Source of the DNA: a virus
Taxonomy: Duplodnaviria; Caudoviricetes
Length of the DNA: 55,100 nucleotides
Strand: one strand, 5' to 3'
Virus record (IMG/VR): IMGVR_UViG_3300045256_000036
Coordinates: 1-55,100 of that record
Both the position numbers and the translations under genes were made by a program. The notes under the pieces were generated by a model. The model ran no database searches. It worked only from the letters and a program-made list of their open reading frames with translations, and had not been told where the DNA came from. Shown piece after piece: positions 26,316-51,421 of the stretch (positions are counted from its first letter, which is position 1; each line of letters opens with the position of its first letter).

Positions 26316-26620
26316 GCACATTATCTATAAACTCCCATTGTGTATTTATTGAGTTCTTTTAGAGACATTATTGAGTGTTCCTGTAGTCCCGGTAATATGG
26401 TAGGAATATATGCCCAGCAAGGCGGCACAGCTCTAACGGAGGAGAGAACCAATCCCTGCTCACGGCTAGCTCCTCGGGCATCCAGCGACTTCGACTGTAA
26501 TAACTACAACATATATCTATAACTATTATTTATGATTATGAATATTCATATTCTAATCAATTTATTGAATAGCTAACTAACATATATTATGAACGAATGT
26601 TATAAATTATCCTCTCAATT

Positions 26621-26787
26621 GGGGGGTTTGGGGGGGGTGGAGGAGGTTAAAATATTTATTTGTTAGATAGTCGTATTTAGGGAGATGAATATTCAATATC
26701 ATAAAATATAGGAAGGGAAGGAATATAAAAATATTCATATAATATATAAATATATACACTCCTCATCCCCCCCATAGAACCCCCCCC
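26621..26787. repeat. 167-bp origin-like element, copy B (inverted relative to 27-193)
   Basis: Same length and G-tract/AT core/C-tract layout as copy A; 34-bp exact inverted match. Confidence 0.85.
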
Positions 26788-26916
26788 GGGGGCCTTGGGG
26801 TGGTTCTCTAGATGCCGTCTGCAGTTAGCTGGTTCATGCTTAACTTTCAAGATGACGTCTCTTGTTGTCCGAGGGGACACCTATACGGAAAAAGTGCCCC
26901 CGTTGTGTGAGACGAT

Positions 26917-27008
26917 ATATTATCTATAATACATATATTTAGTAAATTTGTATTCATAAACGGAGTGTTAGTGGTAGATCGACTAAATATATGTATTATA
27001 GATAATAT
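26917..27008. repeat. 27-bp perfect inverted repeat with 38-bp spacer
   Basis: atattatctataatacatatatttagt (26917-26943) / actaaatatatgtattatagataatat (26982-27008). Confidence 0.9.
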
Positions 27009-27120
27009 GTTGTGATTATATTGAGATGATATGATGTTGAATAAATGTTGAGAAAATATGATGTTGAGTAAATGTTATGATATGTTGAGGAAATAAGATG
27101 ATCAGTTAATATAAATGTAG

Positions 27121-27149
27121 TTGCATGTTGAGATTGTATATGTTAAGAT
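27121..27149 (+). promoter_or_regulatory. sigma70-like promoter without CTCC box
   Basis: ttgcat-17 bp-taagat with TG extension, upstream of the first HTH gene. Confidence 0.5.
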
Positions 27150-27196
27150 GTATGTAGTTAAGTAATAGAGCTTAACTGATGATGAGAGGTGTTGAA

Positions 27197-27502
27197 ATGG
27201 AAAGGGAAGTGGTTATGGTTGGTGGTGTGAAGGTGGAGAAGGGTTCGAATGTTGAGAAGATGTTGAGGTTGAATGAGGAGGGTAAGACTGTAGGAGAGAT
27301 TGCTAAGTTGTTGGGGTTAAAGTATCAGGTAGTTTATAATAGTTTGAAGATGAAAGGAGTGGGAGTGAATTTGAAGGAAAAGGGAGAAAGTAAGAGTGAG
27401 AAGATTAGGAAGATGGCTAAGGAAGGTGTGAGTAAAGGAGACATTGCTAAGGAGTTGGGGATTAGTTATCAGTTTGTGTATAATGTGTTGAGTAGGAAGT
27501 AG
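27197..27502 (+). CDS. tandem HTH DNA-binding protein (YQxVYN family)
   Basis: Two HTHs: TVGEIAKLLGLKYQVVYNSL and SKGDIAKELGISYQFVYNVL; GAGGT RBS before the ATG at 27197. Confidence 0.8.
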   Translation: MEREVVMVGGVKVEKGSNVEKMLRLNEEGKTVGEIAKLLGLKYQVVYNSLKMKGVGVNLKEKGESKSEKIRKMAKEGVSKGDIAKELGISYQFVYNVLSRK

Positions 27503-27511
27503 TAGAGAGTT

Positions 27512-27561
27512 GAGATTAGGCTATAGCTTATATTGAAAGATATAGGCTATAGCTTAATTTT
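27512..27561 (+). other. long RNA hairpin with G-U pairs
   Basis: gagattaggctatagcttatat / atataggctatagcttaatttt. Confidence 0.6.
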
Positions 27562-27579
27562 AGGTGAAAGGAGAAAGTG

Positions 27580-27660
27580 ATGAATCCGGCAGTGTTGTTT
27601 ATGATCGTTTGTTTGGTAGCTCATATTGTTGTTGAGTTTGTGATCAGGTGGAGAAAGTAA
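27580..27660 (+). CDS. 26-aa single-TM peptide
   Basis: AAAGGAG RBS; MNPAVLFMIVCLVAHIVVEFVIRWRK. Confidence 0.6.
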   Translation: MNPAVLFMIVCLVAHIVVEFVIRWRK

Positions 27661-27749
27661 TGAAAAGTGAAGTGTTGTTTGATCTGGCAGTGTTGGTTAT
27701 GTTGGTTTTAGCGATCGTAGCTTTAGTGATAGTGTTCGGAAGTAGGTAG
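27660..27749 (+). CDS. 29-aa single-TM peptide
   Basis: TAATG coupling, GGAG RBS; MKSEVLFDLAVLVMLVLAIVALVIVFGSR. Confidence 0.6.
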   Translation: MKSEVLFDLAVLVMLVLAIVALVIVFGSR

Positions 27750-27753
27750 TGTT

Positions 27754-27821
27754 GAGATTTTGTTGCGAGAATGTTGAGTTCTCGTGACAAAATTTTTCTT
27801 GCCCTTCGGGCACAACTTTTT
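27754..27821 (+). terminator. hairpins / terminator closing the C-poor operon
   Basis: gagattttgttgcgagaa...ttctcgtgacaaaatttt followed by gccc-ttcg-ggc and a T-tract. Confidence 0.55.
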
Positions 27822-28074
27822 ATTCCAAACGTATGTTAGCTGCAAACTGTTAGCTGCCATTAAGGTATGATTTTCTCACTGCGTTCGAAAATCATGGTTA
27901 TTTGGTTGTTAGTGATACGAGGGGCATCCACTTCGCTTCGCTACGTTCCTCCCAAGCGAGGTTGTTAGTTTTCGCACATTCGAACATGGTTGTTAGTGTT
28001 CTGGGCTCCGCTTCGCTCCGCCCTTCGGGTTACCCGTAAGCCAAAGGCTTCCAGTTAAAACCTAATCGTTCCGA

Positions 28075-28380
28075 TTATCCCCCACCCCACAGGTCCCCCA
28101 ACCCCCATTATCCCCCACCCCCACCCCAGCGCCCCGGGCGGCGGCGCCCTCGGATGCACGCGCCTCCCATGCACGCCACGGCGCGCCCGAGCGGCGGATG
28201 CACCCGCGGCGCCCGGCCCAACCGGCCACGGCCGGCCCAGGGTCCGATGCACCCGCCGATGCACGCGCGGCCCAGGGCGCCAGCGCACCTGTGAGCCACG
28301 ACGCCCACGGCCCGGCCCGCCCACCCATGCACGGGCGTCCGATGCACCGGCCCGCGCCGACAGGAGGCCCGCCCGGCCCT
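28075..28380. repeat. extremely GC-rich non-coding island with 7 ATGCAC repeats and C-tracts
   Basis: ATGCAC at 28154, 28169, 28198, 28247, 28259, 28327, 28342; ccccaccccac runs at 28079-28128. Confidence 0.8.
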
Positions 28381-28608
28381 ATAGTAAAACTTTGGCGCTG
28401 GTCCGACCCTTCCGACGTGTCGCACGGCTCTGAGTGCCTCTTGAGGCTTCCCTTTCGATCCTTGGCTACGTACCATAAAACCATACCATATAGCTCCAGT
28501 TTATCTTTATCCCTGGAAGTAACCTTGGCTCCTTAGTCCTAACTTTTCGTACAACCTCGGCTTCTTTAACGGTCCAAAATAAATTTTGAGTACGACTATG
28601 AAAAGTAC

Positions 28609-28638
28609 TTGTTTTCTCCCATGTTTTCGCTATATAAT
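28609..28638 (+). promoter_or_regulatory. early promoter with CTCCCAT box
   Basis: ttgttt-tctcccatgttttcgcta-tataat. Confidence 0.75.
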
Positions 28639-28784
28639 ATTTATATATAACTAACGAATGGATGTTAGTTATATAGTGTCCACTGGAAGGAACCAAACAC
28701 TATGGATCCACAAACAGATCGCCTTAGAGAAGCGTTCAAACAGTTATCTCTTCCAAGTCTCTCAACCCTAAAGGAGAACCTAAG

Positions 28785-29006
28785 ATGGATCGTCCAATCT
28801 GTCCGATCTGTGATGACGACACAGACAACATTAGAGTGATGCATCCGGGCGATCGTGAAACGATGCCATTCTACGTAGGCACCTGGTGTGCCTGTGGATG
28901 TATCTTCAACGAAGTAGACAAGACAGTCTATGTCATAGGAGACGCCTTAACTGACGCGCAAATCCAGTTAATCAAAGACAAACGGAAGGAGAACCTGTTA
29001 AAATAG
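28785..29006 (+). CDS. small Zn-ribbon protein
   Basis: CPIC...CACGC; AAGGAG RBS. Confidence 0.6.
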   Translation: MDRPICPICDDDTDNIRVMHPGDRETMPFYVGTWCACGCIFNEVDKTVYVIGDALTDAQIQLIKDKRKENLLK

Positions 29007-29124
29007 CTCAACAAAGGCCCCATGGGAGAAACCACGTCAACCACGTCAACCACACCAAAAAATCACAGCTCCCAAGGCGTGATGAACGGTCCAAAAGAAA
29101 TTTTTGCCCTCCCAGCAAAAGTAC

Positions 29125-29155
29125 TTGATTTCTCCCATGGGCTTTGCTATATAAT
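29125..29155 (+). promoter_or_regulatory. early promoter with CTCCCAT box
   Basis: ttgatt-tctcccatgggctttgcta-tataat; shares upstream aacggtccaaaa with the 28609 promoter. Confidence 0.75.
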
Positions 29156-29194
29156 TATAGTGATGAAGCAACACATCACATACATCAAATAGTG

Positions 29195-29241
29195 ATCTCA
29201 TAGGTTACAGGCCTCTCGAGAGTTCGATGCTCTCATGAGAT
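29195..29241 (+). ncRNA. anticodon-less tRNA-like element E1
   Basis: atctcat agg-ttacagg-cct ctc gagag-ttcgatg-ctctc atgagat. Confidence 0.75.
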
Positions 29242-29313
29242 ATGCGCTACGAGCGCAACTCGGCTCCTTAAGCTAAAGTAATTAAGGTAGCCAACCTTGA
29301 CAGGAGAAGAACG

Positions 29314-29772
29314 ATGAGCAAGCGCAACAACAGCGGCGCTAACACCTCGATCGTCGTGACGGCGAAAGCAGGAACGAAGACCGAGAAGATCCTTGAGGCG
29401 TACAGCCGACTTGGATCGGTTAAGGCCGTCGCTGAAGAACTCGGGATCAAGTACCAGCACGTTTACAACACGCTGCGTATGAAGCAGATCCAACCCAACA
29501 CGACTCGCTCCAACAACGGTGTCTCGCTCTCCGATGAGATCGTCAAACTTCACGGATTGGGCAAGACCACCGGCGAGATCGCGAAGATCCTGAGTGCTCG
29601 AGAAGATCGGCAGGGCAAACCGGTTTCGTATCAGCAGGTTTACAATACGCTGAAGAATCGGGATCTACTGCCGAATCGCGCCGAAGCTGCTTCCGTCGAG
29701 ATCGAGATCGATCCGAGCAGCTTCATGTCGATCGATGACGAAGCTGAAGAGATCGCGCCTGATCTCGCCTAA
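29314..29772 (+). CDS. tandem HTH protein (YQxVYN family) with acidic tail
   Basis: VAEELGIKYQHVYNTL and IAKIL...VSYQQVYNTL; AGGAG RBS. Confidence 0.8.
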   Translation: MSKRNNSGANTSIVVTAKAGTKTEKILEAYSRLGSVKAVAEELGIKYQHVYNTLRMKQIQPNTTRSNNGVSLSDEIVKLHGLGKTTGEIAKILSAREDRQGKPVSYQQVYNTLKNRDLLPNRAEAASVEIEIDPSSFMSIDDEAEEIAPDLA

Positions 29773-29789
29773 CAGCCTCAACAACAGAG

Positions 29790-29838
29790 AAGCCTGAGGG
29801 ATAATGGCCCCAAGAGAGTTCAAAGCTCTCACAGGCTT
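29790..29838 (+). ncRNA. anticodon-less tRNA-like element E2
   Basis: aagcctga ggg-ataatgg-ccc caa gagag-ttcaaag-ctctc acaggctt. Confidence 0.75.
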
Positions 29839-29890
29839 TGTTAGCAATCGGGCTAACTAGTCGCACAACGCGACATAACACTCAGAGAAG

Positions 29891-30085
29891 ATGGATCCAC
29901 AGAATCCCTTCAAAGAAGGCACAGCCTTGTGGTGGCTGCGAAACAAGTTTAAACATGTTAGCATCTACACCACTCACACAGAAGTCATCGTTGACGTCTA
30001 TAACGACATCAATGAGATCGAAGTATCTGTGACCGCAGCTAATCTCGATGAGGTGGTCGAGAAGCTCAAGGAGGTCTATCGATGA
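29891..30085 (+). CDS. hypothetical early protein
   Basis: ATGA overlap with the next gene. Confidence 0.6.
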   Translation: MDPQNPFKEGTALWWLRNKFKHVSIYTTHTEVIVDVYNDINEIEVSVTAANLDEVVEKLKEVYR

Positions 30086-30396
30086 GCTCCGAGAAGAAGC
30101 AGTCCTGGGTGCTCGACGTAGGCGTTAAACTTTCAGAGCACGGTTGGGACTTCTCCATGGATCTGTGGGAGAAGGCTAACGATGTCGTACACACGGCTGT
30201 AGGCTTCGAGTCATCTTCAGCTGGAACTGGATTCGGTGTTCGAGACATGCAGTTCTACTTCGACACCGAAGACGATGCTAAAGCCGCTGGTAAGCGTGTC
30301 ATCGAAGCCTTAAAGACAGCTAACCTCGAACTCTCTTACTGCTCAACCTTTGAAGAAGGTGAAGATGAAGAGGGAGATGAAGATGAGGAAGCATAA
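30082..30396 (+). CDS. hypothetical acidic early protein
   Basis: GGAGG RBS; SAGTGFGVRDM motif. Confidence 0.65.
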   Translation: MSSEKKQSWVLDVGVKLSEHGWDFSMDLWEKANDVVHTAVGFESSSAGTGFGVRDMQFYFDTEDDAKAAGKRVIEALKTANLELSYCSTFEEGEDEEGDEDEEA

Positions 30397-30502
30397 CAAA
30401 CAAAGGCTGAAGCAACTGCTTGGCGACCTCCTGATCATGGTGTTGATCGTCGTAGCAATTGCGGGCTTCCTTGGAGTGGTGTATCTTCTAGGAAAGCCTT
30501 AG
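30383..30502 (+). CDS. 39-aa membrane peptide
   Basis: MRKHNKQRLKQLLGDLLIMVLIVVAIAGFLGVVYLLGKP; GGAG RBS. Confidence 0.5.
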   Translation: MRKHNKQRLKQLLGDLLIMVLIVVAIAGFLGVVYLLGKP

Positions 30503-30603
30503 CACTATGAGCCACAAACAACTTCGTCTCCAGATCTTACTAGCCGTCCGGAGAGCTGAGTGCAGTAGGCTAGAACGAGAGCTCGCTAACCTCAAGTCAG
30601 AAA

Positions 30604-30924
30604 GTGAGAAACGTAATATCAGAGAACGATCGACCCGATCGCGAAGAACTGGACGAGATGTGCGACCAGGTTAACGACCTTCCAGAGCGAGAAGACGTAT
30701 TTCATGGACTCACTGTCCAACAGGCAGTTGATAAGATCATGAGCTGCGTTAAAATTCCAGAGCGTGATGAGGTCGCGTTCAGGGAGTATGCTCAGTACGT
30801 CGTTACAGGCTACGCACTTCTACAACTCCTCTGTCTTGATGTAGCTGAGGTAGTGTCATGGAACGTTGAGCTTGGCGAACCGATGTTCAGGCTTAAGCAG
30901 GAGCCACCGACCACTCACAATTAG
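30604..30924 (+). CDS. hypothetical early protein
   Basis: ORF track; co-oriented. Confidence 0.55.
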   Translation: MRNVISENDRPDREELDEMCDQVNDLPEREDVFHGLTVQQAVDKIMSCVKIPERDEVAFREYAQYVVTGYALLQLLCLDVAEVVSWNVELGEPMFRLKQEPPTTHN

Positions 30925-30931
30925 TTTCAAG

Positions 30932-30980
30932 TTCAGCTAGGGATTATGGCCCCAAGGCGGATCATTGCCGCCAAGCTGAA
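30932..30980 (+). ncRNA. anticodon-less tRNA-like element E3
   Basis: ttcagcta ggg-attatgg-ccc caa ggcgg-atcattg-ccgcc aagctgaa; D-arm and linker nearly identical to E2, while the stems differ but still pair. Confidence 0.7.
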
Positions 30981-31016
30981 TCTAGACAAACAGGTGTCTA
31001 GAGATAAGAGGCTGAC

Positions 31017-31352
31017 ATGGAAGAAGATCGTCTACCTGACCTCTCACAAGTAAAGCTCCAAGACGGAGAATACTGGACGCTGCAACACTGGTGTCCGAAG
31101 CATGATTGTCCGATCCAAAGCGATCAGTCTAAGATGGATCTCGATGATCTAGGTAGGGAGTATTTCCAGGACGACAATCGATACTGTCCAGGATTCTCAG
31201 ACATCGAGTCGGCCAAGATCAAAGAAGTTGGTGACAAAAAGTTCGACTGGAACAAATGGTACGACGATGAGGATTGTTCCTTAAACTGGAAGGTAACACC
31301 AATCGTCGTTAACTCCAAGGAAGAACAACACGACGCTAAAGTGGGAGAGTAA
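31017..31352 (+). CDS. hypothetical early protein
   Basis: GAGG RBS; Cys/Trp motifs. Confidence 0.6.
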   Translation: MEEDRLPDLSQVKLQDGEYWTLQHWCPKHDCPIQSDQSKMDLDDLGREYFQDDNRYCPGFSDIESAKIKEVGDKKFDWNKWYDDEDCSLNWKVTPIVVNSKEEQHDAKVGE

Positions 31353-31481
31353 ACGTCGCTAGTCGCTCGCCTGCCGCCGTGAGTAAGCTTTCTTTCCGGG
31401 CCCGCTTACGGCAGCAGGCAGCTCAACTTCCATGTTCAGATGTCTTAAAAATTTTTAAGGACCTTCGAATTGGGAAGTTAC

Positions 31482-31511
31482 TTGTTTTCTCCATGGTTTT
31501 TGCTATATAAT
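31482..31511 (+). promoter_or_regulatory. early promoter with CTCCAT box
   Basis: ttgttt-tctccatggtttttgcta-tataat, 18-bp spacer. Confidence 0.75.
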
Positions 31512-31583
31512 TATATTGATGAAACTAGAACAACCGAACAGAGTTAGTTTCATTACAACCTCTCAACTACCTACAGACAGCAG

Positions 31584-31988
31584 GTGCAGAGTATGGCTAA
31601 GTCAAGGCCTCGTAAGCACGCTCGTAGAAGAACGAACTACAAGTTCTTCAAACTCCACTTCAAACTCGGTACTCAAGAACTTCCTTTGAGCGAGTTTCCA
31701 GAATGGGCACAAAAGTTTCTCGGTGAGTATGGATGCGAACTGAGGAAGATGCGTCCACGTGACTTCGACGCAGTGATGCTAATGCGTCTTCTGAGTGCGT
31801 TGGACAAGGTGCCTATCCCAAACAGACCTCACTGCTGTGAGATCAGAGATCCAGTGGGCAGAATTGTTCGAAGATTCTCTCGAGTGAGAGACTGGAACAT
31901 ACCACATCCAGATCTCGATGATAAGGTCAAGCAGCAGGAGCTCGAGCGTAAACAAGTCGAAAAAGATCTAGCTACTCGTAGGATCTAA
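31584..31988 (+). CDS. hypothetical basic protein
   Basis: ORF after the promoter. Confidence 0.55.
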   Translation: MQSMAKSRPRKHARRRTNYKFFKLHFKLGTQELPLSEFPEWAQKFLGEYGCELRKMRPRDFDAVMLMRLLSALDKVPIPNRPHCCEIRDPVGRIVRRFSRVRDWNIPHPDLDDKVKQQELERKQVEKDLATRRI

Positions 31989-31998
31989 ACGGCTGGTT

Positions 31999-32199
31999 AT
32001 GCGTTCGAAGCAACAAGAGCGTAAGCTCTGGGGTCTATTCTACTACGTAAAAGGTCGAAGGATCAGATACGGTAGTAGAGAATTCCTTTCAGAGTTGTCG
32101 GCTCGCATTATGGCTGACGCTCTGAATGCGCAACAACAAGAAGCCGTCAAGAGGGGCGGTTCTCAGTACAGGCCACTTGTGGCAGAAAGGTTAAGCTAA
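31999..32199 (+). CDS. hypothetical protein
   Basis: TAATG coupling to the next gene. Confidence 0.55.
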   Translation: MRSKQQERKLWGLFYYVKGRRIRYGSREFLSELSARIMADALNAQQQEAVKRGGSQYRPLVAERLS

Positions 32200-32429
32200 T
32201 GCGTAGGAACTACGGTTTGTTCTTCGATATCAAGACTGATGAGGGCGTCAAGCCTAAGCAGTTCGATCCGAAGAACAGAGTCTACGCTACAGAGCAGTAT
32301 GGTGACCTTGCTCTTACTACTGCGATGCATGAAGCTCGCGAGTTGAACAGGAAGCTCGGTCGGCCTAAGCTCTATGTTCGTCGGATCGACAAGCTCACGG
32401 ATGAGCAGTGGCTCGACATGCAGCTCTGA
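32199..32429 (+). CDS. hypothetical protein (possible paralog of 31999-32199)
   Basis: Both carry (W/Y)GLF...A..LN...R(P/L) patterns. Confidence 0.55.
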   Translation: MRRNYGLFFDIKTDEGVKPKQFDPKNRVYATEQYGDLALTTAMHEARELNRKLGRPKLYVRRIDKLTDEQWLDMQL

Positions 32430-32527
32430 TTCAAGGGGGCTAGAACATGGGGGCTAGAACTAAACGATGGATAGAGATTTTTGGCACATCCCGCCTGACG
32501 ACCAGTAGAGTTAGTTGAGTAGTTGGT

Positions 32528-32577
32528 TCTCTAGGCTGACAGGCAGCTGCGAAGAGGGTTCAATTCCCTCCTAGAGA
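32528..32577 (+). ncRNA. anticodon-less tRNA-like element E4
   Basis: tctctag gctg-acagg-cagc tgcgaa gaggg-ttcaatt-ccctc ctagaga; ends 2 nt before ATG 32580. Confidence 0.75.
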
Positions 32578-32579
32578 GT

Positions 32580-32969
32580 ATGAGCAAACGAAGATTCAAT
32601 AGCTACAACTGGGAGGCAATGGGAAGCTATCCTCCTACGTTCAAGGCTGACTTAGGTAAAAATTTTTCGGAGCCTGAGTCAGTAGAGACTCCTCCTCCTG
32701 ACTTGACTCCTGAAGAGCAAGTAGCTAGGGTGCTGTCTGCACTAGTAGCTAGGGAGTATTCAGCTATAGATGGCTATAACCTAACTCCTACACTTAGACA
32801 GATAAATAAAATTTATAGTGAGCTCGAGAAGTATGTTAAATCTACAGGAGGCATTATCGGCAATGTCATGAAGTGTGAAGCAGCCATCAAAGCTGAATGG
32901 CACAAACATGTAACTAATGCTGCTGCTGTCGACCTAACTGATTTCGATCCTTATGAGGATGAGTCTTAG
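32580..32969 (+). CDS. hypothetical protein
   Basis: ORF bracketed by elements E4 and E5. Confidence 0.6.
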   Translation: MSKRRFNSYNWEAMGSYPPTFKADLGKNFSEPESVETPPPDLTPEEQVARVLSALVAREYSAIDGYNLTPTLRQINKIYSELEKYVKSTGGIIGNVMKCEAAIKAEWHKHVTNAAAVDLTDFDPYEDES

Positions 32970-32970
32970 T

Positions 32971-33012
32971 AGTCTCAGTAGGCGTAGAGAGGTTCGATTC
33001 CTCTCTGAGGCT
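32971..33012 (+). ncRNA. tRNA-like minihelix element E5
   Basis: agtctcag taggcgtag agagg-ttcgatt-cctct ctgaggct; no D stem but retains GG. Confidence 0.7.
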
Positions 33013-33097
33013 TGTAAGCATTCCGCGGAGAGTGCGGCGCGGCTTACACTCTCTCCGATCGTGGAGAGTAGCACCCTGACAGAAGGGGTGAATATGA

Positions 33098-33421
33098 ATG
33101 GATCCGGGTAATGGTAGGCAAGTCTCAAAAGCACAACGCATTAGAGACTTGGCAGAGCAGCGTAAGAGTATTGCAGAGATCATGCAGATCATGCAAGAGG
33201 AAGGTAGGCCTGTAAGCTATCAGCACGTTTACAATACGCTTACCTATTCTCGAAAGCTCAAGGATCCAAACGAAGCATACAAAGCTCGTAAGGCTATGGT
33301 TCATCATCGTGATGACGGGCCTCGGTCGCTGGAGGAGCGAGACGAGCTACGTACGCGTAGGGAGGGTGTGCGAGCTCGTGAACGAGAGCTGAAGGAGAAC
33401 AACAATGCCGCTGATGGATGA
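33098..33421 (+). CDS. HTH protein (YQxVYN family)
   Basis: SKAQRIRDL...SIAEI...VSYQHVYNTL. Confidence 0.75.
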   Translation: MDPGNGRQVSKAQRIRDLAEQRKSIAEIMQIMQEEGRPVSYQHVYNTLTYSRKLKDPNEAYKARKAMVHHRDDGPRSLEERDELRTRREGVRARERELKENNNAADG

Positions 33422-33722
33422 AGACGAACAGCTTCCGCCTGAACTTCAGGCAGTTCAAGACGTCTCAGACGACAAGACAAGAAATCTGCTTACCATCCTA
33501 AGGGATGAGCTTGGCTTTGAACTGACCGAAGAGTTCGTAAGGGGAGTAGTAACTTGTCAGGCTGTGCAACTAGCGCTATCGGGTAGTCCTTACGTTGTGG
33601 TAGCTCTAACCTTAGTTGCGGCTCAGAAGGACATCAGTGCTCCTGAAGCCGTGCGTAAGCTCGTAGATTACTGTGTTAGGCGTGCGCTTCGCATTCGCGA
33701 AGTAATGTTGAAGGAGATTTAG
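33405..33722 (+). CDS. hypothetical protein
   Basis: AAGGAG RBS. Confidence 0.6.
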   Translation: MPLMDEDEQLPPELQAVQDVSDDKTRNLLTILRDELGFELTEEFVRGVVTCQAVQLALSGSPYVVVALTLVAAQKDISAPEAVRKLVDYCVRRALRIREVMLKEI

Positions 33723-34091
33723 ATGTCGTTCAATCGTCGCAATGCAGCTCCTGTCAAGGAGCCTCGTCGGGTGCTTCTCGGAAGCTTGAAGGTTGGCAGG
33801 GAAGAAGTTCGTATCAACCACGCGATCTTCGAGCGTGACGGGGAGGCACAACCGCCTACGATGGACATTCGTCGGTGGTGGTTCGACGATAATGATGATG
33901 CTCAACCTGGTAAGGGATTGAACATTCCTAAAGCCAAGTGGGATGAGTTCGTCACTCTCGTCAATGAGGCTGATTCCAAGCTCAAGGAGCTTACCGAGAA
34001 AGCTAAAGAGCTTAGGGCTCAGAGAGAAGCTGAGAAAGCTTCTAAGAGCTCAAGCACTGAAGCTGTAATGAGTTTGGAGGATGTAGACTAG
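33723..34091 (+). CDS. PC4/YdbC-like single-stranded nucleic acid binding protein
   Basis: MDIRRWW...PGKGLNIP...W motif (DIRxW...KG). Confidence 0.7.
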   Translation: MSFNRRNAAPVKEPRRVLLGSLKVGREEVRINHAIFERDGEAQPPTMDIRRWWFDDNDDAQPGKGLNIPKAKWDEFVTLVNEADSKLKELTEKAKELRAQREAEKASKSSSTEAVMSLEDVD

Positions 34092-34100
34092 TCAAGCAGT

Positions 34101-34150
34101 AGCCTTGTAGCGTTAAGGGCTAATGAGATGTTCGATTCATCTCCAAGGCT
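34101..34150 (+). ncRNA. anticodon-less tRNA-like element E6
   Basis: agccttg tagc-gttaagg-gcta at gagatg-ttcgatt-catctc caaggct. Confidence 0.75.
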
Positions 34151-34194
34151 TGCTTCAATAAAGAGGCAATGCAAGGGAGTAAAGAAAGGAACTC

Positions 34195-34527
34195 ATGAGC
34201 GAAAGAAGAAACAGACCGCCTAGGAGGCGTAAGGTGAAAATCAACCTTGCAGAGCATGACAGAATCGTTGAGTTGTATCGGCAACTGATGCGGGGATGTA
34301 TCACAGCAGGAAGACCTCTTACTGATGATTACATTCAAGGTCTAGTTGACTCTAGCGTAGTGCTTGGTGCAGCGTTCAACATGATTCACCAAGACACAGC
34401 TGAAGCTCTAGTAACGTCAGGAGTAGAACTTACTCAGAAGCTTCAGGAGATCAGAGACATGTTAGAGGGTGACGAAGGTCATCGAGTGTCTGATGATCAC
34501 AGTAGCGAGAAGCCTAAAGGCTTGTAG
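34195..34527 (+). CDS. hypothetical protein
   Basis: AAGGA RBS. Confidence 0.6.
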   Translation: MSERRNRPPRRRKVKINLAEHDRIVELYRQLMRGCITAGRPLTDDYIQGLVDSSVVLGAAFNMIHQDTAEALVTSGVELTQKLQEIRDMLEGDEGHRVSDDHSSEKPKGL

Positions 34528-34543
34528 ATGAAGGGAGAGTATA

Positions 34544-34996
34544 GTGTCGTCGCTAAACTTTTTTGTCGTAACAGAACACAAGGAAGATAATAAAGCCGTT
34601 GGCGACATTCACATCGTCAAAGCTTTTCCTTCTCAGAAGCAAGCTAGAGAGCATTTGTCTAGTTTGATCGAACGGAACGAGAAGTTAGGACACACTTATG
34701 ATCATGTGACAGGCGACATCTATCGCGTAACAACTCCTAAGAGGGTGTACACGATTAAGATTGTTGACTGGCAGTACATGTTCAACAAGAGAGTGTTCGT
34801 CACATCTTCGATGTTCACACGAATCGGATACAACACCAAGCTTGCCAAGTTGTATCTCAGGTTCAAGACTAACAACTCTCTGTGGAGTTATGACTGTCCT
34901 CCTGCGATGTTCAAAGCGTTGTTGACTGCTAACAGTCTTGGTCAGATCTACAACGCAGCCATCAAGGGAAAGTACGACGGCAGACAAGAGGAGTAG
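34544..34996 (+). CDS. KTSC domain protein (C-terminal)
   Basis: VTSSMFTRIGYN...LYLRF...YDCPPAMFKALLTANSLGQIYNAAIKGKY. Confidence 0.75.
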   Translation: MSSLNFFVVTEHKEDNKAVGDIHIVKAFPSQKQAREHLSSLIERNEKLGHTYDHVTGDIYRVTTPKRVYTIKIVDWQYMFNKRVFVTSSMFTRIGYNTKLAKLYLRFKTNNSLWSYDCPPAMFKALLTANSLGQIYNAAIKGKYDGRQEE

Positions 34997-35000
34997 TTCA

Positions 35001-35231
35001 GTGGCTTGGATACCAGTCGTACCAGAACACACACTGGTTCCATATCATGTCTGCACTAGACAAGATCCATGGAACGAGCATAAGAGTAGGCGTGCATGTC
35101 ATCCTCATGCGAAGCCTATTGGAAAGCTAGAGAATGCTGGGAGCAACAAGTTCTTCTGTCCTTATTGCTCTACAGTGTTCAGGGTTATCTTAGTAAGACA
35201 AGGTTCAGGAGTTCCAAAGGAGAACAGATGA
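35001..35231 (+). CDS. small Zn-ribbon-like protein
   Basis: GAGGAG RBS before GTG; CHPH...CPYC. Confidence 0.5.
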   Translation: MAWIPVVPEHTLVPYHVCTRQDPWNEHKSRRACHPHAKPIGKLENAGSNKFFCPYCSTVFRVILVRQGSGVPKENR

Positions 35232-35806
35232 AGCGAGCAGCCAACATCTCACGCGAGATTCTCTATACTTGGGAGTGGCAGAAACTCAGAGTCAGTCTGA
35301 GCTTTGCTACTCTCATCGACACGAGGGAAAGTATTGAGACGCTCAATGCTTACCTTCTAAATCATCACTTCGATGATCCTATCGGGAATCGCATTACCCG
35401 TGTGAACAACATGATGAATGCTACCAAGATGGGAATGAACGGACAGCTAAAGCTTCACGCTGGAACAAACAAAGCTGTCGAGCTGAAGCAGATGATTCTA
35501 GAAGTCTCACGTATGCAGTTAGTCGTCAGTGCTATGCAGCTCGAACACTCGATGGTTCTAAAGGAACCTATCTTGGCTGTGCAGCGAGACGATCTCACAC
35601 GAGCGTACTACGAAGAGCCAACTATCTTCAAGAAGGTTCTTCAAGACTTGACGAAGAGGTTCTACTACGGGAAAGGTGCGAGGATCAGTCCTAACGACAA
35701 TACCGCGATGAACAAACGTATCAGAGATCGACCAGAACTCTGGCGCTACATCAGACTCATGGAAGATGTGGCTAACAGCGTAGAAAGGAAAAAGGCAGCA
35801 GCTTAA
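35228..35806 (+). CDS. hypothetical protein
   Basis: AAAGGAG RBS before ATG 35228 (the track's longer start is unlikely). Confidence 0.6.
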   Translation: MKRAANISREILYTWEWQKLRVSLSFATLIDTRESIETLNAYLLNHHFDDPIGNRITRVNNMMNATKMGMNGQLKLHAGTNKAVELKQMILEVSRMQLVVSAMQLEHSMVLKEPILAVQRDDLTRAYYEEPTIFKKVLQDLTKRFYYGKGARISPNDNTAMNKRIRDRPELWRYIRLMEDVANSVERKKAAA

Positions 35807-36261
35807 TGGTGACCAAACTTGTAGGCGTAGTTCGTACGAGTGCTGACGTAGGTGTACTTATGATAGCTGAAAGGCTAAACATTCCCACAAGTGGATGGGC
35901 ACCAGGAAACATATCTTTAACGGAGGAGGGACGTAAGAAGTACGGTATCAAGAAAACCAAAGCTGTAAACGTTCACAAGGCTATCGACCTCAGTACAAGT
36001 GAAGCTGACAAGATACTTCTTTTTACCTTCACACCGCCGGATCCTCAACTCAAGAAGATCGTCGAGCAGGTAACTAAGAAGCCTTGTTTCGTGTTTGAGA
36101 CTGTCAGAAACATGACAGCCTTAACTGACAAGATCATGGAGGCAAGAAAGTTCATCCATGGAGAAGACGGTAAGGACAAATGTAAGCTGTGCGTCATCAC
36201 GGACATGTGCACAGACAATGCTGAATTCAGACTGACCGTGCTCAGTATGCTAGCTATCTAG
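35806..36261 (+). CDS. SLOG-superfamily (putative molybdenum carrier / YpsA-like) protein
   Basis: TSADVGVLMIAERLNIPTSGWAPG resembles the TGADxAaL...giptgGwaP motif. Confidence 0.5.
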   Translation: MVTKLVGVVRTSADVGVLMIAERLNIPTSGWAPGNISLTEEGRKKYGIKKTKAVNVHKAIDLSTSEADKILLFTFTPPDPQLKKIVEQVTKKPCFVFETVRNMTALTDKIMEARKFIHGEDGKDKCKLCVITDMCTDNAEFRLTVLSMLAI

Positions 36262-36276
36262 AGCCTAACACAAGGC

Positions 36277-36320
36277 AAAGAAATGGGGAGTAAGCCTAAT
36301 AGCCTACTCCCCTTCTTTTT
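36277..36320. terminator. bidirectional intrinsic terminator between convergent arms
   Basis: aaagaaat-ggggagta...tactcccc-ttcttttt. Confidence 0.7.
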
Positions 36321-36348
36321 GGCCTAGCTTTAGGCTTATCGATTGGCT

Positions 36349-37434
36349 TTAGGCTTTAGGAACTTTGGTGATGAGATTCCTGTGCCCGAGATCCTCAAGA
36401 CTCCAGTTGTAAATCGTATGCTCCTTATGAAGGTAGCGGAACGATCTCCAACCCACCATAGGACCAACGTGAGCCCTCCTAGCTAAGGCCTCTAGCTGGT
36501 GTTCCGTAGGAGAGATGTGTAGAGGTATCTGTCCAGTAAGTCTTCCGTAAAGACTTGAGTCTTCATCAAACGTCGATAGCTTATCAGAATTGAACCTTGA
36601 CAAGTTAGACGTCCGGGCACATCTTGCCGCACTGATAATGCAAGCATTTCTCGTGCCTTCTGAGTAGCCGCAGTCTTCGATGAGCGCCTCGATCTCCTCG
36701 TAGCTAACTAGTGGAATGTGCCACCCACCGCAATGGACTATGTTAACCCATGCAGGTGTTTCTCTCCCGCAAGGAGTTGTTTTGGTGTCTGCTTGCCACT
36801 TGTGAGGCATGACTCCGAAGTAACAGATGGCAGCTAGTCGGGCCATCTCAAACATTTCAGGCTGTGCATCCTCATGCACTCGTAAGGCGAAGAAGTTATG
36901 CCACACATCTTCATGAGCCGTTACGATCTCTGTGACCCATTGGTATGGAGCTAACGGGCGATTAGCTATTTGCTTGTGCGCTCCAGCAGCCAGCATGATC
37001 TTGGATGCTAGGATAGCACTACGTCTACCCAGAGCCCATCCGAACTTTGCCACTAGAAGCCGAAGCCCGGAAAGCTCACTCTTGGATTGCATACCGGGGT
37101 TGTTAGCTCCCCAGAAGATAGGTGCGCATTTGTCTTCAGCTACCATCTTCAGGATCTTGTGAGTAGGTATTGCTCTGTTCGATGCAACGCTCCTGCTCTT
37201 ACCCCTGTGCCTGCAAGCTTCGGCGTGAACCATAAGAGGATAACGCCATAGCATCGTAGTGACTCTGTCGCCTGTGTTAGCGTTAATAGAGTCAGCTAAC
37301 GTTCTGCATTGGTAGCCTCTACCTGACTCAGTCACGACTGCAGGCAGTAATCCGAAAGGACCAGGCAGCCAGTCTGTAACGTGTGTTACTTTCCTGACCG
37401 GACCAGTATCAACTTGCCAAGGCAAAGAGCTCAT
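36349..37434 (-). CDS. thyX: flavin-dependent thymidylate synthase
   Basis: RHR-X7-SxR motif (RHRGKSRSVASNR), HKQIANR, NFFALR...AQPE, SAARCAR, HISPTEHQ. Confidence 0.85.
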   Translation of the reverse strand: MSSLPWQVDTGPVRKVTHVTDWLPGPFGLLPAVVTESGRGYQCRTLADSINANTGDRVTTMLWRYPLMVHAEACRHRGKSRSVASNRAIPTHKILKMVAEDKCAPIFWGANNPGMQSKSELSGLRLLVAKFGWALGRRSAILASKIMLAAGAHKQIANRPLAPYQWVTEIVTAHEDVWHNFFALRVHEDAQPEMFEMARLAAICYFGVMPHKWQADTKTTPCGRETPAWVNIVHCGGWHIPLVSYEEIEALIEDCGYSEGTRNACIISAARCARTSNLSRFNSDKLSTFDEDSSLYGRLTGQIPLHISPTEHQLEALARRAHVGPMVGWRSFRYLHKEHTIYNWSLEDLGHRNLITKVPKA

Positions 37435-43279: not shown

Positions 43280-44188
43280 CTACCTCAGTGCGATGAGTGA
43301 AAGGAACTCTGTCCTTGCGTGTGGGACGTCTCTGAACACACCTCTGATGGCTGATGTCGTTGTGGTTACGCCTTGAACCGAAACTCCTCGAACCACCATG
43401 CATGTGTGTACGATGTGATCTGCTACTACGATAACGCCTTTTGGTTTCAGGACACGTTCGATAGTGTCTGCTATCTCGTTAGTTAAGCGTTCTTGGATGC
43501 TGGGACGAATCCTACCAGCAGCCGACACCAGTCTCTGCATCTTGCTCAGTCCAACCACATTTCCATTTGGGATGTAGCCAATGTGCATCTTCCCAAAGAA
43601 CGGACAGAAGTGATGCTCGCACAGCGCTCCAAATTGTAGGTCGTTGAGGATGACCATCTCATTGGACTTCTCGTAATGAGCGAAGCTCTTCAGGAGTTTG
43701 TCTAGATTACAGGGTTGTCTGAACTCTTGAAGGAACCTAGCAACTCTTTCGGGCGTCTCACTTAGTCCTGGCTCGGATGCAGGATCGAGATCAAGCATCC
43801 TCATCATCTCTCGGAAGTTAGAAGTTAGTTGCTTCTTGACAGCCGAGGCCTGTGCTTCGTCTGAATTCACAAAGTAGTCTTCAGCTCTTACTTCAAAGGC
43901 ATCTTCGTCTTCGTCTTCGTCTTCTGTCTCGTCGGAGTTGATCCTCAACTTACCTGTCGCGATCATGTTTCTCATGCCATCAAGCTCTTGAAGTTGCCTC
44001 TTCAGATCTTTATCAGCTATAGAAGGATCGATCACACGTGATCTGACATCAAGATCTTGGATGAAGTCGAACCCAGCAAAGCTTTGCCTGCAGTTGTGGC
44101 ATTCGTACGTTTGAGTAGGACCTGCTTTGAGTATGTCCCACAACGAGAACTCCCTTGGAACGCTGCGGCATTCTGGACAGCCTAGCAT
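43280..44188 (-). CDS. folE: GTP cyclohydrolase I with N-terminal Zn-ribbon/acidic extension
   Basis: ETPERVAR, CEHHFCPF, YIP, GLSK, IQERLT, HTCMVVRGV. Confidence 0.95.
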   Translation of the reverse strand: MLGCPECRSVPREFSLWDILKAGPTQTYECHNCRQSFAGFDFIQDLDVRSRVIDPSIADKDLKRQLQELDGMRNMIATGKLRINSDETEDEDEDEDAFEVRAEDYFVNSDEAQASAVKKQLTSNFREMMRMLDLDPASEPGLSETPERVARFLQEFRQPCNLDKLLKSFAHYEKSNEMVILNDLQFGALCEHHFCPFFGKMHIGYIPNGNVVGLSKMQRLVSAAGRIRPSIQERLTNEIADTIERVLKPKGVIVVADHIVHTCMVVRGVSVQGVTTTTSAIRGVFRDVPHARTEFLSLIALR

Positions 44189-44194
44189 GATGAC

Positions 44195-44971: not shown

Positions 44972-44999
44972 TGTTTCCGCCTTGTTCTTTCTTGAGCTG

Positions 45000-45494
45000 T
45001 TAGTCGGTTAGCGTATCGGACTCATCAAGTCCTGCGTAAGCAGCGAAGTCTTCGTAGGTTACCTTAACGCTACTCTTCCTAGTCTCCGAAACTACGACGT
45101 AGTCTAGTAGATCTCCGAAAGCTAGGTAGAGCTTGTCGAATGTCCAGTAGGCTACGTTTTCAGTAGTAGGAGGATAGTAAGGAGAGTCCGGCTCGATTAC
45201 ATCGTTGATGATGCGATGATCGAGCTCGTCGATAACCTTAGACATGATCGTATCTTCAGCTGCATCGAAGTCGATGAGCATACCCTGACTAGGTCCAGGT
45301 GTCTCCTGAATATAGCCAGCAAGACCGATCGTGAACTTGTAGTTATGACCGTGGACTCTCCTACACTTACCTTCGTGTTCGGGAAGGTTGTGTGCGCAGT
45401 TAGCTTCGTAGGTAAGCTCAACTGTTGCGTACCTCGGATTAGTCTCCTCGCTGTCGTTGCGTGTTGTATTGTTGCTAACGGTTTCAGAGCTCAT
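45000..45494 (-). CDS. queD: 6-carboxy-5,6,7,8-tetrahydropterin synthase
   Basis: AHNL...CRRVHGHNY, GMLIDF, LDH, TTEN, VSET. Confidence 0.95.
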   Translation of the reverse strand: MSSETVSNNTTRNDSEETNPRYATVELTYEANCAHNLPEHEGKCRRVHGHNYKFTIGLAGYIQETPGPSQGMLIDFDAAEDTIMSKVIDELDHRIINDVIEPDSPYYPPTTENVAYWTFDKLYLAFGDLLDYVVVSETRKSSVKVTYEDFAAYAGLDESDTLTD

Positions 45495-46221: not shown

Positions 46222-46248
46222 CTTGGACCTTTCCTTAAGCAAACAAAG

Positions 46249-51206: not shown

Positions 51207-51318
51207 TGCGAAATCTTCATAACAGAAAAGACCTTGGATCTCAACGAGACTCGATGAACAGTGGCTGACAATCTCTGCCCTCTCTTGACAGGAGTTGAGT
51301 CTCTCCACCCAAGGCCAA

Positions 51319-51390
51319 AAGGCTAGCCAGGAATCGAACCTGAGACCAACCGATTATAAGTCGGCTGCTCTACCACTGAGCTACTAGCCT
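51319..51390 (-). tRNA. tRNA-Ile (anticodon UAU), CCA not encoded
   Basis: aggctag ta gctc agtggta gagc a gccga cttataa tcggt tggtc tcagg ttcgatt cctgg ctagcct t. Confidence 0.9.
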
Positions 51391-51421
51391 TACCACCTAA
51401 CATCTGGAACCGCAGCGGAGG

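What the first reader, a model, noticed from the sequence alone, without database searches (positions are those of the whole stretch)
32528..33012. One gene boxed in by two tRNA-like elements, with its ATG 2 nt after the upstream element
Seen: E4 ends at 32577, the ATG is at 32580, the stop ends at 32969 and E5 begins at 32971. The only purine-rich RBS-like bases lie within the E4 stem. Inference: RNase Z cleavage after E4 and RNase P cleavage before E5 would release an almost exactly leaderless, trailerless monocistronic mRNA, as in mitochondrial punctuation. This is the sharpest test of the processing model.
Basis: partly seen in the sequence, partly recalled or inferred. Interest (0 to 1): 0.72.

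Follow-up and report, generated by a model that had tools for sequence, protein, structure and literature searches.

The report
Phage gene boxed by tRNA mimics
A small gene of an uncultured hot-spring phage sits exactly between two cut-down tRNA look-alikes, which probably tell the host's tRNA-trimming enzymes to cut it out as a message with almost no leader or trailer, although no RNA data show the cuts.

Summary
The window is a whole 55.1-kb phage record. Its + strand early block holds six 40-50 nt tRNA mimics. Each has a 7-bp acceptor stem, a short GG-bearing hairpin or linker, and a canonical T arm; none has an anticodon arm. E4 is 32528-32578 and E5 is 32972-33012. They box a 129-codon ORFan (32580-32969) with 2 nt on each side.

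The family is real:
- A covariance model built from E1-E3 alone recovers E4, E6 and E5.
- 13 of 15 pairs show compensatory changes.
- All six are intergenic and on the coding strand.

New here: the base after the discriminator is U in 6 of 6 and none encodes CCA. A U there is a published activator of Bacillus subtilis RNase Z. The 2-nt gap before the ATG is exactly discriminator plus that U.

Limits:
- There is no RNA evidence.
- The ORF has no relatives, so its start cannot be checked by conservation.
- The nearest relative found (terminase 49% identical, syntenic early block) has no such elements.

Best reading: RNase P/RNase Z punctuation of early operons (about 0.55). The leaderless reading of this gene is about 0.4.

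This scan has noted similar tRNA top-half mimics in other phages. My literature searches found no published phage case.

The parts
29195..29242 (+). E1. tRNA mimic: acceptor ATCTCAT/ATGAGAT, hairpin AGG-TTACAGG-CCT, T arm GAGAG-TTCGATG-CTCTC, discriminator A, then U. It lies about 33 nt after the inferred start of promoter copy P2.
29791..29838 (+). E2. tRNA mimic starting 18 nt after the stop of the HTH gene 29314-29772. It has an A:A mismatch at 7:66. It shares its GG hairpin with E3, but the stems differ.
30933..30980 (+). E3. tRNA mimic starting 8 nt after the stop at 30924. Its T loop is ATCATTG, with positions 54 and 58 swapped from T/A to A/T.
32528..32578 (+). E4. tRNA mimic: acceptor TCTCTAG/CTAGAGA, hairpin GCTG-ACAGG-CAGC, T arm GAGGG-TTCAATT-CCCTC, discriminator G32578. 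U32579 follows, then the ATG.
32580..32969 (+). 129-codon ORF without relatives. The codon-usage signal is in this frame only. There is no SD core. An alternative in-frame ATG lies at 32619 (M14).
32972..33012 (+). E5. The shortest mimic (41 nt with discriminator): acceptor GTCTCAG/CTGAGGC, 9-nt linker TAGGCGTAG, T arm AGAGG-TTCGATT-CCTCT, discriminator U, then U. It starts 2 nt after the stop codon.
34102..34150 (+). E6. It starts 10 nt after the stop at 34091. Its T arm and 3' acceptor strand are 86% identical to E5's.
   Evidence: (family D14)
28593..28638 (+). P1. Promoter-like repeat ending in TATAAT, followed by a predicted 5' hairpin. That it is a promoter is inferred.
   Evidence: (D5, D6)
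29117..29155 (+). P2. Second copy of the promoter-like repeat. E1 follows about 40 nt after its TATAAT.
   Evidence: (D5, D11)
31466..31511 (+). P3. Third copy of the promoter-like repeat. It heads the inferred unit that holds E4, the boxed ORF, E5 and E6.
   Evidence: (D6, D11)
51318..51391 (-). The phage's only true tRNA, Ile (anticodon TAT). No CCA is encoded and a U follows the discriminator, as in the six mimics.

Best explanation
The six elements are anticodon-less tRNA mimics. They keep what the tRNA end-processing enzymes read: the acceptor/T-arm stack, the T loop, a GG partner for the elbow, an unencoded CCA, and a U after the discriminator.

Inferred mechanism. They are transcribed inside the early operons that start at the repeated promoter-like elements. 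Host RNase P cuts at their 5' side and RNase Z cuts after the discriminator. The operon RNA is thereby split into single messages, and mini-tRNAs of about 40-50 nt are released.

For the gene at 32580-32969 this predicts an RNA of about 393 nt (32579 to 32971). It would carry a 5' phosphate, a 1-nt (or 0-nt) leader and a 2-nt (or 1-nt) trailer. It would then have to be translated as a leaderless mRNA.

Shown here: the structures, their family character, their placement, the U74/no-CCA signature, and the absence of an SD core or other upstream start.

Inferred only: the promoters, both cleavages, their order, the start codon and leaderless translation.

My odds:
- The elements are real structured RNAs: 0.95.
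- At least one of the two enzymes cuts them in vivo: 0.7.
- The punctuation model as a whole: 0.55.
- This gene starts at 32580 and is translated leaderless: 0.4.
For: Family and structure:
- The strict scan finds 3 elements against 0.09 expected.
- Model R1, built from E1-E3, finds E4, E6 and E5.
- 13 of 15 pairs show compensatory change and 97.6% of cells are paired, with 0 of 500 shuffles as high.
- E2 and E3 share an almost identical GG hairpin but have different, fully compensated acceptor and T stems.

Features read by tRNA enzymes:
- G53:C61 in 6 of 6 and T55-C56-R57 in 6 of 6.
- T54/A58 in 5 of 6, with a swap to A54/T58 in E3.
- GG in the hairpin loop or linker in 6 of 6.
- The elbow is what RNase P, RNase Z and the CCA-adding enzyme grip (PMC4810234, passages).

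RNase Z signature:
- U at position 74 in 6 of 6 (chance about 1.3e-4) and no CCA in 6 of 6.
- The phage's own tRNA-Ile has the same 3' context.
- A U within 2 nt of the discriminator stimulates B. subtilis RNase Z about 200-fold (PMC10100781, passage).
- RNase Z cuts after the discriminator and is blocked by CCA (PMC1874595, passages).

Placement:
- 6 of 6 lie on the coding strand of the early block and 6 of 6 are fully intergenic. The chance of that is about 1e-6 with a generous ORF set.
- Four start 2-18 nt after a stop codon.

The boxed gene:
- The coding signal is 0.30 bits per codon in frame 0 and negative in the other five frames.
- It has no SD core, whereas 8 of 17 early ORFs have one at 4-9 nt.
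- The ATG lies 2 nt from a stem-loop of -19.5 kcal/mol. An uncut transcript should therefore be a poor substrate for ordinary initiation (inference).

Precedent: plant mitochondrial t-elements coincide with mapped mRNA ends. One (rps4) gives a 5' end at +2 of the gene (PMC1920247, abstract and passages).
Against: - There is no RNA evidence of any kind.
- Only 1 of the 6 elements abuts a start codon. The other five leave leaders of 37-86 nt.
- E1 lies just behind a promoter copy and a predicted protective 5' hairpin. Cutting there would remove that hairpin and leave a 5' monophosphate, which fits simple punctuation poorly.
- In 5 of 6 elements the base at -1 can pair with the discriminator. From recalled work on tRNA-His, this may shift or slow RNase P cleavage.
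- Only 2 of 6 have G at +1.
- The nearest relative found, G001 (terminase 49%, capsid 66%, syntenic early block), has none: R1 best E 1.4, a generic scan gave only chance-like rows, and I read its intergenic gaps.
- 80 terminase-related loci (1.01 Mb) give 2 strict hits against 1-2 expected.
- An in-frame ATG at 32619 would give a 40-nt leader, like those of the other elements.
- The first 13 codons score lower than the rest of the ORF (0.125 against 0.32 bits per codon), though 13 codons are too few to decide.
- The host is unknown, so its RNase Z and its use of leaderless mRNAs are unknown.
Confidence: 0.55

Rival explanations
1. The elements work mainly as end-protecting or insulating structures and are cut on one side only, or not at all. 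For example, RNase Z alone would leave the upstream message with a tRNA-like, CCA-repairable 3' end. RNase P alone would leave a structured 5' end on the downstream message. The boxed gene would then be translated from a longer RNA, possibly from ATG 32619.
For: - Four of the six elements start 2-18 nt after a stop codon, as a 3' cap would.
- The phage appears to protect its mRNA ends: each promoter copy is followed by a predicted 5' hairpin.
- Pairing of -1 with position 73 in 5 of 6 elements extends the stem.
- With M14 as the start, the leader would be 40 nt, within the 37-86 nt range of the other elements.
Against: - A plain hairpin would protect an end just as well. It would not need G53:C61, the T loop, GG and U74 in 6 of 6.
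- The GGAGG before M14 lies only 2-3 nt from that ATG. Real SD cores in this block lie at 4-9 nt.
- That GGAGG is predicted to pair with CCUCC downstream. The fold's z-score is only -1.2, so this is weak.
- An uncut E4 places a stem of -19.5 kcal/mol 2 nt from ATG 32580.
Confidence: 0.2
2. The released mini-tRNAs are themselves the product: small early RNAs that act in trans. They might act as decoys or competitors for host proteins that grip the tRNA elbow or acceptor end, such as tRNA-modifying, CCA-adding or tRNA-sensing defence proteins. Their position between genes would then be only a convenient way to express them.
For: - There are six paralogous copies, all in the earliest transcribed block.
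- The elbow features are kept.
- E1 sits at the very start of a transcript, where punctuation has little to separate.
Against: - The acceptor stems differ in all six and show no shared identity set. There is no G3:U70, and G1 occurs in only 2 of 6. A trans target that reads sequence is therefore unlikely.
- No phage protein with a tRNA-related domain other than the queuosine-precursor genes was found: 0 of 62 ORFs scanned against Pfam.
- The exact abutment to a stop codon and a start codon at E4/E5 is not explained.
Confidence: 0.15
3. The elements are decaying remnants of tRNA genes that lost their anticodon arms, and they have no present function.
For: - Phages often carry tRNA genes, and this one has a tRNA-Ile.
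- The nearest relative lacks the elements.
Against: - Compensatory changes keep 97.6% of pair cells paired across six diverged copies.
- The T-loop core and U74 are kept in 6 of 6.
- All six have the same deletion architecture and the same strand.
Confidence: 0.05

Closest known systems
t-elements of plant mitochondria (Forner et al. 2007, PMC1920247; abstract and passages read)
   Same: - tRNA-like folds that are not tRNAs and carry the GGTTCRANYCC T-arm motif.
- They are embedded in mRNA precursors, and their borders coincide with mRNA 5' and 3' ends.
- They are proposed or shown to be cut by RNase Z and RNase P.
- Released elements receive non-encoded C/CCA.
- One case (rps4) has the mRNA 5' end at +2 of the gene.
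   Different: - Organelle, not phage.
- Those elements are about 74 nt and cloverleaf-like. These are 40-50 nt with no anticodon arm.
- Ends were mapped there; none have been mapped here.
- Here six paralogues lie within 5 kb of one early block.
tRNA punctuation of animal mitochondrial transcripts (Ojala, Montoya and Attardi 1981; recalled, not read here)
   Same: - Genes are butt-jointed to tRNA-shaped RNAs.
- Excision yields mRNAs with almost no leader or trailer, which are translated without an SD.
   Different: - True tRNAs do the job there.
- Stop codons there are often completed by polyadenylation. Here the TAG is complete.
- Only one of the six junctions here is butt-jointed to a start codon.
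tRNA top-half mimics noted by this scan in other phage genomes (AI notes e1-5996470, e1-5799890, e1-6115994, e1-5947523, e1-5697935)
   Same: - Anticodon-less acceptor/T-arm folds lie between phage genes.
- One note describes a tRNA-shaped RNA 3 nt before a gene without a ribosome-binding site.
   Different: - Other genomes, with no sequence likeness to this window.
- The notes are unchecked and have no RNA data either.
- The U74 signature and a gene boxed on both sides are reported here.
CCA-less bacterial tRNA precursors processed by RNase P, then RNase Z (PMC1874595 passages; PMC10100781 passage)
   Same: - No encoded CCA, and a U directly after the discriminator.
- The acceptor/T stack and elbow are present.
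   Different: - The mimics lack the anticodon arm and the usual D arm.
- They cannot decode.
- Their 3' trailer is a protein-coding message.

Membership tests
Canonical tRNA gene | Cloverleaf with an anticodon arm, detectable by tRNA finders | tested here: not met
   ARAGORN finds only tRNA-Ile at 51318-51391. Rfam tRNA matches only that gene at the gathering threshold. It gives no match at E up to 10 in 28000-37000. The elements are 40-50 nt with a 9-19 nt connector.
Canonical tRNA gene | 7-bp acceptor stem stacked on a 5-bp T stem, 7-nt T loop, G53:C61 | tested here: met
   The stack is 12-13 bp in 6 of 6. The 7:66 position is mismatched in E2, E3 and E6, and E6 compensates with a sixth T-stem pair. 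G53:C61 holds in 6 of 6 and T55-C56-R57 in 6 of 6.
t-element / tRNA-like processing signal | tRNA-like fold with the conserved T-arm motif, lying inside an mRNA precursor next to coding regions | tested here: met
   GGTTCRAWTCC is exact in E4 and E5, and GTTCRA-type loops occur in 5 of 6. All six are on the coding strand and intergenic. That they are co-transcribed with the genes is inferred from the promoter-like repeats.
t-element / tRNA-like processing signal | mRNA ends coincide with element borders; cleavage by RNase P and RNase Z; CCA added to the released element | not testable with these tools
   No RNA run holds the phage.
RNase Z substrate (CCA-less class) | No CCA after the discriminator, and a U within 2 nt downstream of it | tested here: met
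   Position 74 is U in 6 of 6 and CCA is absent in 6 of 6. The criterion comes from PMC10100781 and PMC1874595.
Leaderless mRNA | AUG at or within a few nt of the RNA 5' end | not testable with these tools
   This holds only if RNase Z cuts after G32578 or U32579. No RNA ends are available.
Leaderless mRNA | No Shine-Dalgarno sequence, and an AUG start codon | tested here: met
   No GGAG/GAGG/AGGA core lies within 20 nt upstream. 8 of 17 early ORFs have one at 4-9 nt. The start codon is ATG.
Intrinsic terminator | G+C-rich hairpin followed by a U run | tested here: not met
   None of the six is listed on the + strand by the terminator scan. The tails are UGC, UGU, UCU, UAU, UGU and UGC.
Conserved RNA family in related phages | Presence at the same place in relatives | tested here: not met
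   G001 has a syntenic early block but no element. In 80 related loci, R2 gives only one weak hit, present in two identical contigs. Closer relatives (terminase 71% P0008; HTH 56-59% P0005, P0006) could not be fetched.

The most novel reading that the evidence does not exclude
A bacterial virus uses mitochondria-style punctuation. Purpose-built, anticodon-less mini-tRNAs recruit host RNase P and RNase Z to cut a monocistronic mRNA out of an early operon. That mRNA starts at its AUG (5'-pU-AUG or 5'-pAUG) and ends 1-2 nt after its stop codon. Its translation would then depend on processing and on SD-independent leaderless initiation, perhaps as a timing or host-state switch. The 2-nt spacer, discriminator plus the RNase Z-activating U, is the tightest packing that still allows the cut.
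Probability: 0.35. Interest if true: 0.8.

Novelty: new variant of a known kind. Interest (0 to 1): 0.6.

Why it matters
tRNA punctuation and t-elements are textbook for organelles. They have not, as far as my searches reach, been described for phage operons (searches found no phage case).

If the cuts occur, three things follow:
- Phages can shape operon expression with about 45-nt modules that borrow two universal host enzymes.
- Leaderless mRNAs can be made by processing, not only by transcription starting at the AUG.
- The modules would be compact, portable parts for making defined RNA ends in bacteria.

This locus gives the cleanest test case. One RNA of about 393 nt has both ends predicted to within a nucleotide.

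Tried and rejected
RNA evidence. No RNA holder is listed for 28500-36300. The 4 runs that hold it are DNA runs from hot-spring or microbial-mat metagenomes and may be the source itself. I did not lay reads.

Relatives of the boxed ORF: none found.
- Pfam 0 families and PHROGs 0 families.
- Viral contigs 0.
- The phages collection gave one hit at E 0.5.
- The 5.8-billion-protein search returned only the ORF itself.
- The representative library returned the ORF itself plus two long repeat proteins, P0002 and P0003. I judge these spurious from their sequences.

Function of the ORF.
- The ESM Atlas gave no usable feature hit, and structure hits had TM below 0.5.
- AlphaFold from the single sequence gave pLDDT 48.9, mostly helices after residue 43. 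That is too poor to search with.

DNA relatives.
- blastn of 30000-36300 against phages gave no match.
- The DNA polymerase found no close relative in viral contigs or metagenome contigs. In the phages collection its best match is 28% identical.
- The pattern GGGATWATGGCCCCAAG gave one chance match inside a coding region (L001).
- The HTH-protein alignment A3 gave one high-GC contig that ends inside the gene (L002) and nothing in genome contigs.

Host. The epimerase search in genome contigs found nothing. The host remains unknown.

Rfam at E up to 10 gave only chance-level miRNA/snoRNA hits and a 12-bit tmRNA-like hit on E5's T arm.

Other points:
- A 19-codon frame across E4 (TTG 32515 to TAG 32574) is the only candidate for translational coupling. 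I rejected it as implausible.
- E5 has an alternative longer register, with its acceptor 5' strand at 32963-32969. RNase P cutting there would remove the stop codon, so I prefer the register starting at 32972.
- The MAFFT alignment of all six (A2) misaligned the 5' strands and was not used.

Full report
**What the window is.** The 55,100 bases are one whole virus record. It encodes:
- a lambda-like head module: capsid protein E, decoration protein D, S49 protease and a Mu-type portal;
- a large terminase, a family A DNA polymerase, an SNF2 helicase and a PD-(D/E)XK nuclease;
- a folE-queD-queE-queC set.

Almost all long genes are on the minus strand. A block of about 17 small genes at roughly 28.6-36.3 kb is on the plus strand. 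DNA runs that hold the region come from hot-spring and microbial-mat metagenomes, and none is RNA. The host is unknown.

**The observation.**
- The E4 acceptor 3' strand ends at 32577.
- G32578 is the discriminator and T32579 follows.
- The ATG is at 32580 and the TAG stop ends at 32969.
- After 'TA', E5's first acceptor base is G32972.

Both elements fold as a 7-bp acceptor stem stacked on a 5-bp T stem with a 7-nt T loop.

The ORF's frame is closed by a TAG inside E4, and no ATG, GTG or TTG lies between that stop and 32580. The purine runs near the ATG are inside E4, and no SD core lies 4-11 nt upstream.

**The family.** A scan for 'acceptor plus T arm' finds five elements on the + strand. 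A sixth, E3, has a variant T loop and was seen by eye.

| Element | Coordinates (with discriminator) |
|---|---|
| E1 | 29195-29242 |
| E2 | 29791-29838 |
| E3 | 30933-30980 |
| E4 | 32528-32578 |
| E5 | 32972-33012 |
| E6 | 34102-34150 |

Each element has, in order:
- a 7-bp acceptor stem;
- directly after it, a 3-4 bp hairpin whose loop ends in GG (E5 has only a 9-nt GG-bearing linker);
- a 3-6 nt linker;
- a T arm;
- the acceptor 3' strand.

None has an anticodon arm. ARAGORN and Rfam see only the true tRNA-Ile on the other strand.

**Is it more than chance?**
- Under strict rules the window has 3 distinct elements. The mean of 100 Markov simulations is 0.09.
- A covariance model built from E1-E3 only, run without filters over both strands, ranks E4 (21.9 bits, E 7e-4) and E6 (20.1 bits, E 2e-3) directly after its training set. 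E5 comes seventh (12.5 bits, E 0.4), behind one decoy.
- On the model-fitted alignment of the six, 97.6% of 85 cells are standard pairs and 13 of 15 pairs change on both sides. 0 of 500 shuffles reach this, and slid registers give 33-56%. The alignment was fitted to the structure, so it leans towards it.
- E2 and E3 aligned by MAFFT without gaps show the same thing plainly. Their GG hairpins are nearly identical, while their acceptor and T stems are different and compensated.
- All six lie on the coding strand and wholly between ORFs. With a generous ORF set the chance of that is about 1e-6.

**Features that point to the tRNA-processing enzymes.**
- G53:C61 is kept in 6 of 6, and T55, C56 and purine 57 in 6 of 6.
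- T54/A58 is kept in 5 of 6, and E3 swaps both to A54/T58.
- GG, the usual partner of the T loop in the elbow, is present in 6 of 6.
- The elbow is what RNase P, RNase Z and the CCA-adding enzyme hold (PMC4810234, passages).
- None of the six encodes CCA, and the base after the discriminator is U in 6 of 6. The chance of that is about 1.3e-4 at 22.6% T.
- The phage's own tRNA-Ile has the same 3' context.

In B. subtilis a U within 2 nt after the discriminator stimulates RNase Z about 200-fold (PMC10100781, introduction passage citing Pellegrini 2012). RNase Z cuts after the discriminator, is blocked by CCA, and works poorly on long 5' extensions, so RNase P is thought to act first (PMC1874595, passages).

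This makes the E4 junction readable. The 2 nt between acceptor stem and ATG are exactly the discriminator and the activating U. That is the shortest spacer that keeps the signal.

**The boxed gene.**
- The ORF scores 0.30 bits per codon in its frame and is negative in the other five frames. This is like its neighbours, so it is probably a real gene.
- It has no relatives and no usable structure model. Its function is unknown.
- Its start cannot be checked by conservation. The only other candidate is ATG 32619 (M14).
- The GGAGG before M14 is 2-3 nt away, whereas the eight SD-bearing early genes have 4-9 nt.
- That GGAGG is predicted to pair with CCUCC downstream, though the fold is not better than shuffles.
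- The first 13 codons score lower than the rest, but they are too few to decide.

I put 0.6 on ATG 32580 as a start. I put 0.4 on the full leaderless reading.

**Context of the other elements.** Three copies of a promoter-like repeat ending in TATAAT lie at about 28.6, 29.1 and 31.5 kb. Each is followed by a predicted 5' hairpin. That they are promoters is inferred.
- E1 lies about 33 nt after the inferred start of the second unit.
- E2, E3, E5 and E6 start 18, 8, 2 and 10 nt after stop codons.
- E4 starts 98 nt after one.
- The distance to the next start is 72, 53, 37, 2, 86 and 45 nt for E1 to E6.

So the general rule is 'just behind a gene', and only E4 is 'just before a gene'. This fits punctuation, but it also fits a 3'-end role. 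E1's position behind a protective hairpin is awkward for simple punctuation.

**Relatives.** The nearest relative I could reach is an IMG/VR record of 53,993 bases, G001. Its terminase is 49% identical and its capsid 66%. It has a syntenic early block on its minus strand at about 44-50.5 kb, with its own repeated promoter-like element. It has no such elements:
- Model R1's best hit has E 1.4.
- The generic scan gives only chance-like rows, and ARAGORN finds nothing.
- I read its intergenic gaps.

In 80 terminase-related loci (1,013,118 bases), the strict scan gives 2 hits against 1-2 in five simulations. Model R2, built from all six, finds only one weak match (18.6 bits, E 0.13), present in two identical contigs, L074 and L076. 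By eye that match is a well-formed minihelix with a GTTCGATCC T loop. It lies 3 nt before the ATG of a 31-codon hydrophobic ORF.

So the elements are a young, lineage-specific expansion. Their support rests on paralogue covariation, not on conservation across phages.

**Comparison with what is known.** The closest described systems are plant mitochondrial t-elements (PMC1920247) and animal mitochondrial tRNA punctuation (recalled). This scan's own unchecked notes list tRNA top-half mimics in several other phages. One is a tRNA-shaped RNA 3 nt before a gene without a ribosome-binding site. Nothing in them resembles this window by sequence. Five full-text searches gave no published phage case. 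Subscription journals are mostly not covered.

**Verdict.** The structure and the exact boxing are real. The RNase P/Z reading is the best-supported mechanism, and the U74/no-CCA signature strengthens it. No cut has been shown, the leaderless step is uncertain, and the nearest relative does not share the elements.

Noticed in passing
window 43280-46242 (-): A set of GTP cyclohydrolase I, radical-SAM QueE-like, QueD/PTPS and QueC genes. Phages use this set to make 7-deazaguanine precursors, often for DNA modification (that use is recalled). The relative G001 has the same set.
   Followed up: partly
window 26900-27800 (+): The + strand is extremely poor in C here (43 C in 901 bases) and GC skew reaches 0.31. 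The motif ATGTTGAG occurs seven times between 27045 and 27771. The stretch still carries an ORF (27179-27502) with two HTH repeats and two tiny hydrophobic ORFs.
   Followed up: partly
window 28060-28400: A 76% G+C island in a 48% G+C genome, with three copies of a GATGCAC-containing 24-mer. It lies just upstream of the first promoter-like repeat. No convincing gene was found in it.
   Followed up: no
window 26610-26640 and 26765-26800: Long G runs and matching C runs flank an A+T-rich stretch of about 130 nt in the large non-coding region between the terminase side and the early block. This may be an origin or packaging region.
   Followed up: no
window 28593-28638, 29117-29155, 31466-31511 (+): Three copies of a promoter-like repeat (AAGTACTTG..TTTCTCC..GCTATATAAT). 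Each is followed by a predicted 5' hairpin of -7 to -15 kcal/mol. G001 has its own, different, repeated promoter-like element in its early block.
   Followed up: partly
window 27179-27502, 29314-29772, 33098-33421 (+): A paralogous family of small HTH proteins shares the motif YQ(H/Q)VYN(T/S)L. It occurs twice in each of the first two proteins. Homologues at 56-59% identity exist in metagenomes (P0005, P0006).
   Followed up: partly
window 32435-32460 (+): GGGGGCTAGAAC occurs twice, 2 nt apart, in the 98-nt spacer between the stop at 32429 and E4. Its function is unknown; it may be a protein-binding site.
   Followed up: no
window 33013-33085 (+): Two adjacent predicted hairpins lie directly after E5 and before the next gene: GTAAGC..GCTTAC enclosing CCGC..GCGG, then ACUCUCUCC..GGAGAGU. 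Neither is followed by a U run.
   Followed up: no
L074 1338-1381 and L076 1354-1397 (+): A distant terminase relative (43% identical), present in two contigs identical over the 400 nt compared, has a tRNA top-half mimic. It has a 7-bp acceptor stem, a GG linker and a 6-bp T stem with a TTCGATC loop. It ends 3 nt before the ATG of a 31-codon hydrophobic ORF upstream of the terminase genes. The model score is weak (E 0.13).
   Followed up: partly
window 51318-51391 (-): The only true tRNA, Ile with anticodon TAT, sits between two replication-module genes. It has no encoded CCA and has UU after the acceptor stem, so it may itself punctuate that operon.
   Followed up: no
window 31365-31421 (+): A long G+C-rich inverted repeat (GCCTGCCGCCGTGAGTAAGC .. 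GCTTACGGCAGCAGGC) follows the gene 31017-31352 and precedes promoter copy P3. It is probably the end of the second early unit.
   Followed up: no
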